Positions 62,709-64,000 of a stretch of 64,000 nt of DNA are shown here, one piece after another; position 1 is the stretch's first letter; every line of letters starts with the position of its first letter. The translations under genes and the position numbers were made by a program. The stretch covers positions 34,116-98,115 of the IMG/VR virus record IMGVR_UViG_3300049719_000225; one strand, 5' to 3'. This stretch comes from a virus. The notes beneath the pieces were generated by a model. That model had not been told where the DNA came from. It searched no databases and was given only the letters and a program-made list of their open reading frames with translations.

Positions 62709-63344
62709 ATGCAAGCAGCTAAGTTGGCACACAAGACAGTGGCAGAAGTTGGGGTAGGAGCACCCCTGGTGATCCCCCCGATAAACATCCAGGAGTTCGA
62801 TATTACGTTGAGGAGCGACAGCTCCCTCATCAGTCACAGGTGGTCCGAAAAGGCCAAGAAGGAGATGCGCGACAAGCAGACAAAGCAGCCCAAGACAGCG
62901 AGGGCTGCCAAAGTGGCCGAAGACGAAGTTCGTGCCAGTCTCTACGAGTTGCCCGATGGAAAAAACGGAGAAAAGCGTTTTGGTTTTCCCACTGTGGCAT
63001 TCAAGAGTTCTGCGGTAGATGCCTGTTCGCATGTGGAGGGCATCACCAAGGTGGAAGCTCGGGGTGCTTTCCACATCAACGGTGAGTTGGCCGAGATCAT
63101 CGGTGAGCCCACGGGCCGCGAGGACATGGTTCGCATTGGTATGGGCACGGCGGATCTTCGCTATCGCGGTGAGTTCAAGTCTTGGAAGACCACGTTCACC
63201 ATCCGTTACAACAAGAATGTCTTGTCGATGGAACAGATCGCCAACCTGTTCAGGACGGCAGGCTTCGCAATCGGGGTCGGTGAATGGAGGCCTGAAAAGA
63301 ACGGCAGCCACGGCATGTTCTCCGTGGAGGCGGTGACGGGATGA
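62709..63344 (+). CDS. stand-alone RAMP/Cas7-like protein (copy 2)
   Basis: SDSSLISHRW, GFPTVAFK, RYRGEF..W, G-rich loop AGFAIGVGEWRPEKNGSHGMF. Confidence 0.78.
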   Translation: MQAAKLAHKTVAEVGVGAPLVIPPINIQEFDITLRSDSSLISHRWSEKAKKEMRDKQTKQPKTARAAKVAEDEVRASLYELPDGKNGEKRFGFPTVAFKSSAVDACSHVEGITKVEARGAFHINGELAEIIGEPTGREDMVRIGMGTADLRYRGEFKSWKTTFTIRYNKNVLSMEQIANLFRTAGFAIGVGEWRPEKNGSHGMFSVEAVTG

Positions 63345-63937
63345 AATCCTATTCCTTGGTGCCAATGCCCGGTGGTGTCCTGAACAAGGATGAACTGCCT
63401 ATTTTCCTGCCTGTGTTTAGTAAGTTGGCTGCGCAGAATAGGCTGACGCCCCAAGCGTTGGTTGACACTGCTCGTCCAGATATTTCGCCGATTCACCCGT
63501 TCTACGAGTGGGACGACAGCATTGCAGGAGAGCAGTATCGATTGGAACAGGCCCGTTCTCATGTGCGCTGCGTGCGGCGTGTCGAGAACACTGTTCCGAT
63601 CAAAGACCAGCCCATTATCCGGGAGTATCACAGTGTCCGTGACCCTGACTCAGGCACACAATATCAACCGCTTCGGGTGGTAGCTCGAAACCCGCTCTAT
63701 TACCAGCAGGTGTTGGCAGACGCGAAGACCGAAATTCGTGCCTGGAGGGCCAAATATGCCTCACTCAATGAGCTGTTCCCCATCATCTCTGCCATCGATG
63801 ATACCCTTGGATCAAAATCGAGACCGGCCTCCCGGCGCTCGAAGGCCTCACGATTGACACCAGAGGAAAAGAAACCGCGATTGAAGGCCTTGAAAAGGGT
63901 ATTCGCACGACACGGGAGGCAGGCTGGGCGTGCCTAG
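63341..63937 (+). CDS. conserved protein coupled to the RAMP-like gene
   Basis: LTP..LVD.AR...SPIH..YEWDD..A.EQYRLEQAR; ATGA overlap. Confidence 0.75.
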   Translation: MKSYSLVPMPGGVLNKDELPIFLPVFSKLAAQNRLTPQALVDTARPDISPIHPFYEWDDSIAGEQYRLEQARSHVRCVRRVENTVPIKDQPIIREYHSVRDPDSGTQYQPLRVVARNPLYYQQVLADAKTEIRAWRAKYASLNELFPIISAIDDTLGSKSRPASRRSKASRLTPEEKKPRLKALKRVFARHGRQAGRA

Positions 63938-64000
63938 CCAGGGCTGGGCTTGGCACGGCTGGGCAGGGCTTGGCGTGGCGTGGCCAGGCAGGGCAGGCAG
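63918..64000 (+). repeat. GGC-NN pentamer tandem tract (continues past the window end)
   Basis: 15 in-register pentamers from 63922, 13 starting GGC: GGCTG GGCGT GCCTA GCCAG GGCTG GGCTT GGCAC GGCTG GGCAG GGCTT GGCGT GGCGT GGCCA GGCAG GGCAG. Confidence 0.85.

What the first reader, a model, noticed from the sequence alone, without database searches (positions are those of the whole stretch)
62709..64000. Second, divergent RAMP-like locus with an accessory gene and a GGC-NN pentamer tract
Seen: a distant homologue of the 45152 protein (same G-loop pattern, GVGEWRPEKNGSHGMF) is translationally coupled to a 198-aa protein. At that gene's stop begins a strict GGC-NN tract (NN = TG GT TA AG TG TT AC TG AG TT GT GT CA AG AG) that runs off the window. 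Inference: two independent RAMP-like genes each followed by 5-nt periodic non-coding DNA, with different constant motifs (GGC versus xGC), point to a real protein-RNA system with two orthogonal subtypes in one phage. The accessory ORF is a candidate effector or regulator.
Basis: partly seen in the sequence, partly recalled or inferred. Interest (0 to 1): 0.9.

Follow-up and report, generated by a model that had tools for sequence, protein, structure and literature searches.

The report
Phage VIPR locus with pentamer guide-RNA array

Summary
A 211-aa protein (62709-63344) overlaps by ATGA a 198-aa protein (63341-63937). A 5-nt periodic GGC-NN tract (63922-64000) runs off the window, and window base 64000 is the last base of a 98,115-bp viral contig. 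A family profile of the 211-aa protein matches the solved SUSP1 Vipr protein over its full length (E 3.5e-18), and its model folds like Cas7/Csm3. Four of the five published GGY-contact residues are conserved and one changes conservatively (D to E). Of 69 distinct related viral loci, 58 have a homologue of the 198-aa protein directly downstream, and 37 have GGY-NN tracts on the same strand. Related arrays are punctuated by GGCAG|GC junctions, a 1-nt register overlap spaced 5n-1 nt apart with n = 9-17. The window holds two such junctions 74 nt apart, which gives one complete 15-unit vrRNA and the first unit of a second. In near-identical relatives the genes are conserved while the NN content is not. 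This matches the 'staggered array' VIPR architecture of bioRxiv 10.64898/2026.04.26.720920. The 45152 protein is a second, divergent Vipr (18% identity) with KGC-NN vrRNAs. No target was found. This scan also noted the sister locus at 44800-45739.

The parts
62560..62708 (+). AT-rich intergenic region upstream of vipr; probable promoter of the vipr-vap-array unit (inferred)
   Evidence: There are two sigma-70-like sites, at 62537-62565 and 62614-62641, which is not above the shuffled expectation. The region has no GGY-NN tract.
62709..63344 (+). vipr gene (Vipr2), 211-aa RAMP protein that would polymerise on the vrRNA, one protomer per pentamer
   Evidence: It matches phrog_4652 at E 1e-24. 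It matches PDB 36pp_D SUSP1 Vipr at E 2.6e-5 as a single sequence and E 3.5e-18 as a family profile over the full length. The AF2 model has pLDDT 89.6. Top Foldseek hits are Csm3/Cas7, Cas7-11 and type VII Cas7, E about 2e-6. H43, R153, E192, W193 and R194 align with SUSP1 H17, R138, D177, W178 and R179.
63341..63937 (+). vap-position accessory gene, 198 aa; conserved about 110-aa N-terminal core plus helices, and a roughly 45-aa basic C-terminal extension absent from most relatives
   Evidence: It matches phrog_15946 at E 3e-17. A homologue lies directly downstream of vipr in 58 of 69 distinct related loci. The AF2 model has pLDDT 84. There is no Pfam or NCBIfam hit. Only weak HTH- or winged-helix-like structural matches were found, Z 4.1 or less, and TM 0.34 to an Arg-repressor cluster. 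It is not similar to SUSP1 vap1, hhalign probability 0.1%.
63918..63922 (+). GGCAG leader or junction unit that opens the array; its last G (63922) is shared with the first GGC of vrRNA 1
   Evidence: Related arrays all open with GGCAG followed by GC. The junction logo from 76 distinct junctions is GGC-A(82%)-G(99%) followed by GC.
63922..63996 (+). vrRNA 1: 15 pentamer units (13 GGC-NN and 2 GCC-NN), ending in GGCAG; the first 16 nt overlap the vap 3' end
   Evidence: The sequence is shown. The junction-to-junction distance of 74 nt equals 5x15-1, and relatives show only 5n-1 spacings of 44-89 nt.
63996..64000 (+). First unit (GGCAG, sharing G63996) of vrRNA 2, truncated by the contig end
45152..45781 (-). 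Second, divergent vipr gene (Vipr1, 195-209 aa depending on the start chosen)
   Evidence: It matches PDB 36pp_D at E 3.2e-7. It has 1392 homologues. hhalign against the Vipr2 family gives probability 99.9%. N31, R148, D187, F188 and R189 sit at the SUSP1 H17, R138, D177, W178 and R179 positions.
44800..45150 (+). Array of about five vrRNA units of the Vipr1 system: KGC-NN tracts separated by a conserved roughly 25-nt element; the sense strand is most likely the window + strand, convergent with vipr1
   Evidence: The sequence is shown. Position-1 composition on the + strand is K at 80%, matching the vipr-sense strand of 80 related loci (G 57%, T 21%). The - strand matches their antisense profile.

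Best explanation
The locus is a VIPR (Viral Interference Programmable Repeat) system carried by a large tRNA-rich phage.

Shown here:
- The 211-aa protein is a Vipr-family RAMP.
- A conserved accessory gene follows it.
- The GGC-NN tract has the same grammar as the arrays that follow the same gene pair in related viruses.

Inferred from the published SUSP1 work:
- vipr, vap and the array are transcribed together from the AT-rich region upstream.
- Vipr protomers bind one per pentamer. They hold each GGC through H43 and E192 (G1), R153 and W193 (G2) and R194 (Y3), and they expose the 15 NN dinucleotides.
- The filament reads double-stranded DNA by the 1-nt-skip rule (NN-x-NN-x...), forms an R-loop triplex and silences transcription of a competing phage, prophage or satellite.

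My own inference: in this clade vrRNA boundaries are set by the GGCAG|GC junction and not by a structured 3' tail. The last G of one vrRNA is the first G of the next, so the register slips by -1 and the filament cannot continue across it. The window holds one complete 15-unit vrRNA and the first unit of a second; the rest of the array lies beyond the contig end. Vap probably assists at the DNA, and its exact role is unknown.
For: Protein:
- A profile of 48 family members matches SUSP1 Vipr (PDB 36pp_D) at E 3.5e-18 over residues 21-202 against 2-191.
- The AF2 model has pLDDT 89.6, with an RRM core, a beta-hairpin thumb and a G-loop.
- The top structural neighbours are all Cas7-type RAMPs.
- Of the five published GGY-contact residues, four are conserved and one changes D to E.

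RNA:
- There are 15 in-phase units, within the published range of 9-16.
- The chance expectation for the strict run is about 1e-10.

Context:
- 58 of 69 distinct related loci have the vap homologue directly downstream.
- 37 of 69 have strict tracts of 5 or more units adjacent on the same strand, against 11 tracts in 367 kb elsewhere.

Grammar:
- There are 88 junctions with a -1 shift, against 3 with +1 and 0 with -2. The shared position is G in 99% of them.
- All spacings are 5n-1, and the window's is 74 nt.
- This matches the 'staggered arrays ... 1 nt overlapping' description of the discovery paper.

Guide-like turnover:
- Relatives whose vipr-vap DNA is 90-100% identical have array regions only 65-74% identical. 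Since 3 of 5 positions are fixed, the NN content is essentially unrelated.
- No self-target exists in the 98-kb contig, as the paper also reports for its systems.
- The L006 array ends in a hairpin followed by a T run on the same strand.
Against: - The paper states that sRNA-seq confirmed the ribozyme-interspersed and single-vrRNA layouts, which leaves out the staggered layout.
- No target was found. IMG/VR had no exact 10-unit match. Prokaryote genomes gave one hit at 22/30. Metagenomes gave a best of 24/30, in a cellular-looking oxidoreductase-like ORF. All of this is about what chance gives.
- Two of the 15 units are GCC, which could weaken protomer binding.
- Vap is unrelated in sequence to the only tested vap (vap1), so its role is a guess.
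- The more distant low-GC relatives (33-39% identity) show no strict tracts.
- The VIPR type (I-VII) could not be assigned, because the paper's supplementary tables are not held.
Confidence: 0.88

Rival explanations
1. The tract is a simple GC-rich microsatellite or an assembly artefact at a contig end, unrelated to the neighbouring genes.
For: It lies at the very end of an incomplete contig, estimated 43% complete. Assemblers often break at low-complexity repeats. Tandem Repeats Finder reports it only as a weak 10- or 25-nt repeat.
Against: The same gene pair is followed by the same pentamer grammar, including the GGCAG|GC junction and 5n-1 spacing, in dozens of independent viral contigs and in isolated Mycobacterium and Gordonia phages. 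The NN positions are non-repetitive, unlike a microsatellite.
Confidence: 0.02
2. The tract is protein-coding, either as a C-terminal extension of the 198-aa ORF or as the open minus-strand ORF 63783-63998 that runs off the contig.
For: An open frame exists on the minus strand (71 aa, 5' open), and the first 16 nt of the tract are inside the vap ORF.
Against: A 5-nt period is out of step with codons. The vap frame ends at TAG 63935-37, inside the tract. Open frames are expected in stop-poor GGC-rich DNA. In relatives the tracts lie after the vap stop and end at terminator-like hairpins.
Confidence: 0.02
3. It is a VIPR-derived locus that no longer works as a guide system, or that acts on RNA or as a decoy rather than silencing competitor DNA. 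One example is vrRNAs that titrate a rival phage's Vipr, as shown for satellite-encoded solo vrRNAs.
For: No target was found in any collection. Two units are degenerate. The Vap family is untested. Decoy and redirecting vrRNAs are documented in the SUSP1-satellite conflict (abstract of 10.64898/2026.10.15.759431).
Against: The vipr gene is intact with all RNA-contact residues. The array grammar is intact. The gene-array linkage is under clear conservation. Failure to find targets is expected when the host and its mobile elements are unsampled and only exact sub-patterns could be scanned.
Confidence: 0.08

Closest known systems
VIPR systems with staggered vrRNA arrays (bioRxiv 10.64898/2026.04.26.720920, fig. 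S18; seven VIPR types)
   Same: It has a Vipr RAMP protein, an adjacent accessory gene, GGY-NN pentamer vrRNAs of 9-17 units, successive vrRNAs overlapping by 1 nt, and a viral location.
   Different: This instance sits in a large tRNA-rich phage together with a second VIPR of another clade. The array begins inside the vap coding sequence with two GCC units. The published type number and vap number could not be assigned here. According to the paper's wording, the staggered layout was not confirmed by sRNA-seq.
Escherichia phage SUSP1 type II VIPR (PDB 36pp; cryo-EM paper 10.64898/2026.04.26.720927)
   Same: The Vipr fold is homologous, with H, R, (D/E), W and R at the GGY contacts. The order vipr-vap-array on one strand is the same.
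   Different: Identity is only about 20%. SUSP1 uses GGT-NN tracts, each followed by a roughly 35-nt conserved tail described as a pseudoknot, and the units are separated. Here the units abut through GGCAG|GC with no tail. The Vap here is not detectably related to vap1.
Class 1 CRISPR-Cas backbone proteins (Cas7/Csm3, Cas7-11, type VII Cas7)
   Same: These are the best structural neighbours of the model, E about 2e-6 and TM about 0.5. They share the RRM, thumb and G-loop RNA-binding architecture.
   Different: There is no CRISPR repeat-spacer array: one search lists no repeat with a period above 25 nt in the window. There are no other cas genes in the module. The guide is read in 5-nt steps with 2 informative bases, not in 6-nt steps with 5.
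Non-canonical VIPR arrays (bioRxiv 10.64898/2026.10.21.760802, fig. S10)
   Same: The sister locus at 44800-45781 uses a trinucleotide that is degenerate at one position (KGC-NN), like the WGT/NN and TGH/NN motifs reported there.
   Different: KGC is not among the examples quoted in the text I could read. In this phage the array appears inverted relative to its vipr gene.

Membership tests
VIPR system | Vipr protein: a minimal single-RRM RAMP with a G-loop and a thumb | tested here: met
   The AF2 model has pLDDT 89.6 with a thumb hairpin at 134-156 and a G-loop at 189-203. The top Foldseek hits are Cas7-type RAMPs.
VIPR system | Sequence homology to an experimentally characterised Vipr | tested here: met
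   The family profile matches PDB 36pp_D (SUSP1 Vipr) at E 3.5e-18 over the full length. The single sequence matches at E 2.6e-5.
VIPR system | Residues that hold the GGY motif (SUSP1 H17, R138, D177, W178, R179) | tested here: met
   The aligned residues are H43, R153, E192, W193 and R194, so D is replaced conservatively by E. R153 and R194 are invariant, and E192 and W193 are at least 90% conserved, in 48 relatives.
VIPR system | Adjacent tandem GGY-NN (YNNGG) repeats of at least 4 units, typically 9-16 | tested here: met
   There are 15 in-phase units at 63922-63996, of which 13 are GGC and 2 are GCC. They are on the same strand and directly downstream.
VIPR system | GGY conserved while NN is hypervariable among relatives | tested here: met
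   Relatives with 90-100% identical genes have arrays only 65-74% identical. The junction logo shows fixed GGY and mixed NN.
VIPR system | vipr-accessory (vap) gene in the operon | tested here: met
   A homologue of the 198-aa protein lies directly downstream of vipr in 58 of 69 distinct loci and upstream in 2. Which of vap1-6 it corresponds to is not determined.
VIPR system | vrRNA is expressed and bound by Vipr | not testable with these tools
VIPR system | Natural DNA target that obeys the 1-nt-skip rule | tested here: inconclusive
   The best matches were 19/30 in the own contig, equal to the shuffled null, 22/30 in prokaryote genomes and 24/30 in metagenomes. Only exact sub-patterns could be scanned.
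VIPR type II (SUSP1-like) | vap1 accessory protein | tested here: not met
   hhalign of the Vap family profile against SUSP1 gp038 gives probability 0.1%.
VIPR type II (SUSP1-like) | Each tract followed by an invariable structured 3' tail | tested here: not met
   Relatives of this clade join tracts directly through GGCAG|GC with no intervening tail. The SUSP1 tails are visible. The window itself is cut before any tail could appear.
CRISPR-Cas class 1 | CRISPR array of direct repeats and spacers, plus further cas genes | tested here: not met
   Tandem repeat and Rfam scans of the window show no CRISPR-like array. The flanking ORFs are a phosphoesterase and an unconserved 189-aa protein.

The most novel reading that the evidence does not exclude
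Two claims are not excluded. First, in this Vipr clade vrRNA length is set purely by a 1-nt register slip: the GGCAG|GC junction stops Vipr polymerisation, so the filament footprint defines the mature RNA ends with no tail, ribozyme or dedicated nuclease. Second, the phage runs two mutually orthogonal VIPR systems side by side, whose proteins discriminate GGC from KGC scaffolds through an H-to-N swap at the G1 contact and a W-to-F swap at the G2 contact. That would amount to a natural two-channel programmable silencer.
Probability: 0.3. Interest if true: 0.55.

Novelty: new member of a known kind. Interest (0 to 1): 0.35.

Why it matters
VIPR is a newly described RNA-guided DNA-recognition system, proposed to be older than CRISPR. 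This locus adds an environmental, large-phage example from a clade far from the studied SUSP1 system (about 20% identity). It has the 'staggered' array layout that, by the paper's wording, was not confirmed experimentally. The quantified junction grammar gives a concrete, testable rule for how such arrays are phased: a shared G, spacing of 5n-1, and a -1 shift in 88 of 91 junctions. The co-residence of GGC- and KGC-reading Viprs, which differ at the published G1 and G2 contacts, offers a natural test of scaffold specificity. It does not change the field's picture, because the kind of system, its code and its variants are already published.

Tried and rejected
**Extending the sequence**
- The window ends at the contig end.
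- The other contig end has no tract.
- An exact 49-nt search of metagenome contigs found nothing.

**Target search with the 1-nt-skip pattern**
- The own contig and 1.16 Mb of fetched loci gave scores equal to shuffled-guide nulls, for the locus-2 guide and three locus-1 guides.
- IMG/VR gave 0 hits for exact 10-unit sub-patterns of the locus-2 guide and of the locus-1 15-unit guide.
- Prokaryote genomes gave 1 hit, which extends to only 22/30.
- Metagenomes, scanned with a 9-unit sub-pattern, gave 14 hits with a best of 24/30. One was in a GMC-oxidoreductase-like ORF of a GC-38% contig and one in a primase-polymerase-like ORF. I judged these to be chance.

**Vap function**
- Pfam, NCBIfam and PDB sequence searches were empty.
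- Foldseek against the PDB was empty.
- VIA-align gave Z 4.1 or less, with small HTH domains among the ties.
- The protein atlas gave only viral hypothetical clusters.

**Other checks**
A profile scan of IMG/VR was used instead.
- A single-sequence scan for close Vap or Vipr1 relatives in IMG/VR found none.
- The upstream 189-aa ORF (61990-62559) was tested as a possible third component. It is absent from all related loci and was rejected.
- VIPR type assignment failed because the paper's supplements are not held.

Full report
**Observation**

Window 62709-63344 (+) encodes a 211-aa protein with the C-terminal motif GVGEWRPEKNGSHGMF. Its stop overlaps the ATG of a 198-aa ORF (63341-63937) as ATGA.

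A 5-nt periodic tract runs from 63922 to the last base, 64000. Thirteen units are GGC-NN. Units 3 and 4 are GCC-NN and span the vap stop codon TAG at 63935-37. The strict run is 11 units, 63942-63996.

This is the only strict GGY-NN run of 4 or more units on either strand of the whole contig. The expected number of 11-unit runs is about 1e-10.

The window is bases 34116-98115 of a 98,115-bp linear viral contig estimated to be 43% complete. The tract therefore runs off the assembly and not merely off the window.

**What the proteins are**

The 211-aa protein has no Pfam or NCBIfam match and belongs to phrog_4652. It hits one solved structure, chain 36pp_D 'SUSP1 Vipr protein', at E 2.6e-5. A profile of 48 relatives raises this to E 3.5e-18 over the full length.

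An AlphaFold2 model (pLDDT 89.6) shows an RRM core, a long beta-hairpin and a glycine-rich C-terminal loop. Its Foldseek neighbours in a PDB copy that predates the VIPR entries are all Cas7-type RAMPs: Csm3, Cas7-11 and type VII Cas7, at E about 2e-6.

[quoted passage not shown] They describe the following:
- a phage-borne minimal RAMP (Vipr);
- an accessory gene (vap);
- vrRNAs made of 9-16 GGY-NN pentamers, with one Vipr protomer bound per pentamer;
- a filament that reads double-stranded DNA through the NN dinucleotides with one skipped target base per unit;
- silencing of transcription of competing phages or satellites.

The cryo-EM paper names the GGY contacts as H17 and D177 (G1), R138 and W178 (G2) and R179 (Y3). 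In the alignments these correspond to H43, E192, R153, W193 and R194 of the window protein. R153 and R194 are invariant, and E192 and W193 are at least 90% conserved, across the family.

The 198-aa protein belongs to phrog_15946 and has no other family assignment. Its model (pLDDT 84) has an N-terminal helix-helix-helix-plus-hairpin core, long helices, and a roughly 45-aa basic tail that most relatives lack. Structural searches give only weak ties: Z 4.1 or less, with small HTH DNA-binding domains among them, and TM 0.34 to an arginine-repressor cluster. It is not detectably related to SUSP1 vap1. It holds the vap position, but its activity is unknown.

**Related loci**

A scan of IMG/VR with the 211-aa protein returned 79 loci at 33-68% identity. 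These reduce to 69 distinct loci:
- 58 carry a homologue of the 198-aa protein directly downstream of vipr, and 2 carry it upstream;
- 37 carry strict GGY-NN tracts of 5 or more units adjacent on the same strand, against 11 such tracts in 367 kb of flanking DNA.

The loci without tracts are contig-end cases or the most distant, low-GC relatives. Isolated Mycobacterium (Cheoctovirus) and Gordonia phages carry the same module.

**Array grammar**

Parsing the related arrays shows that tracts are not separated by tails. They are punctuated by GGCAG followed by a 4-nt unit GC-NN.

I searched for register shifts without imposing the AG. That gave 88 junctions with a -1 shift, 3 with +1 and none with -2. 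The base before the slip is G in 99% of junctions and the one before it is A in 82%. The last G of GGCAG is therefore also the first G of the next GGC. This is the '1 nt overlapping' staggered layout of the discovery paper's fig. S18.

Junction spacings are always 5n-1, from 44 to 89 nt, so n = 9-17. The window has junctions at 63918 and 63992, 74 nt apart (5x15-1). It therefore contains a GGCAG leader, one complete 15-unit vrRNA (63922-63996) and the first unit of a second, cut by the contig end.

In L006 the array ends with GGCAG and a hairpin followed by a T run on the same strand. This supports transcription in the vipr direction. No terminator-like site lies on the + strand between vipr, vap and the tract, and weak promoter-like sites lie in the AT-rich region upstream of vipr.

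**Guide-like behaviour**

Five related contigs have vipr-vap DNA that is 90-100% identical, yet their array regions are only 65-74% identical. With three of five positions fixed, the NN content is essentially unrelated. Some neighbours share a first vrRNA and then diverge.

The window guide has no match in its own contig beyond the shuffled-guide null. The paper reports the same absence of self-targets for its systems.

I could not find a natural target:
- exact 10-unit sub-patterns gave nothing in IMG/VR;
- one hit in prokaryote genomes reached chance level, 22/30;
- the best of 14 metagenome hits to a 9-unit sub-pattern reached 24/30, in cellular-looking or weakly phage-like ORFs.

The collection scans allow no mismatches, so this is a weak negative.

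**The sister locus**

The 45152-45781 (-) protein also matches SUSP1 Vipr, at E 3.2e-7. It belongs to a large separate clade (1392 homologues) that is homologous to the Vipr2 clade over the full length at 18% identity. It has N31 at the H17 position and F188 at the W178 position.

The array beside it (44800-45150) has about five units of pentamers with a fixed GC, separated by a conserved roughly 25-nt element. GC is its own complement, so the strand must be read from the flanking positions. In 80 related loci the vipr-sense strand has G (57%) or T (21%) before the GC and a mixed base after it. In the window this profile is found on the + strand (K at 80%), and the - strand matches the relatives' antisense profile.

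The array therefore reads KGC-NN on the + strand and is convergent with its vipr gene.

The relaxed first position fits the loss of the histidine that contacts G1. That is an inference and was not tested. Non-canonical trinucleotides in VIPR arrays have been reported.

**Verdict**

The locus is a VIPR system of the staggered-array kind, in a clade distant from the characterised type II systems. It co-resides with a second, divergent VIPR.

The kind of system, its code and its variants are already published, so this is a new member of a known kind.

These points remain open:
- expression and processing of staggered arrays;
- the role of this Vap family;
- the target;
- whether the two systems are orthogonal.

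Noticed in passing
window 44800-45150 versus 45152-45781: The vrRNA array of the first VIPR locus appears to be sense on the + strand. Position 1 of the pentamer is G or T in 80% of units, as on the vipr-sense strand of 80 relatives. That makes it convergent with its own vipr gene and antisense to the surrounding tRNA genes. It begins directly beside tRNA-Leu (44715-44799, - strand).
   Followed up: partly
L002 (Mycobacterium phage ByChance, MH399771.1) 2130-2330: A GGC-NN array with the same TGGCAGGC junctions lies upstream of the vipr homologue (gp40). 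It overlaps the annotated hypothetical genes 38 and 39, which are therefore probably spurious ORF calls over vrRNA DNA. The same likely applies to many Cheoctovirus records.
   Followed up: partly
window 63800-63937: The Vap here carries a roughly 45-aa lysine- and arginine-rich C-terminal extension absent from most relatives, which are about 155 aa long. Its last codons are built from the first vrRNA units, including the two GCC units, so protein-coding and guide-scaffold constraints overlap.
   Followed up: partly
L040, L044, L046, L078, L038 (IMG/VR contigs), the 500 nt after vap: Near-identical vipr-vap genes carry different sets of vrRNAs. L040 and L044 share the first vrRNA almost exactly and then diverge, which suggests cassette-wise gain, loss or recombination at the GGCAG|GC junctions.
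   Followed up: partly
window 53401-53820 (-) and 39619-55331: The phage encodes a full-length tmRNA (Rfam RF00023, 70.6 bits) within a block of 33 tRNA genes on the minus strand.
   Followed up: no
window 43766-44602 (-) and 45835-46374 (-): Two ORFs with HNH-like CxxC...CPNCHS motifs flank the first vipr gene inside the tRNA block. They are possibly homing endonucleases, which could explain local rearrangement such as the inverted array.
   Followed up: no
window 63783-63998 (-): An open 71-aa minus-strand frame runs through the tract and off the contig. It is a by-product of stop-poor GGC-rich DNA and should not be called as a gene.
   Followed up: yes
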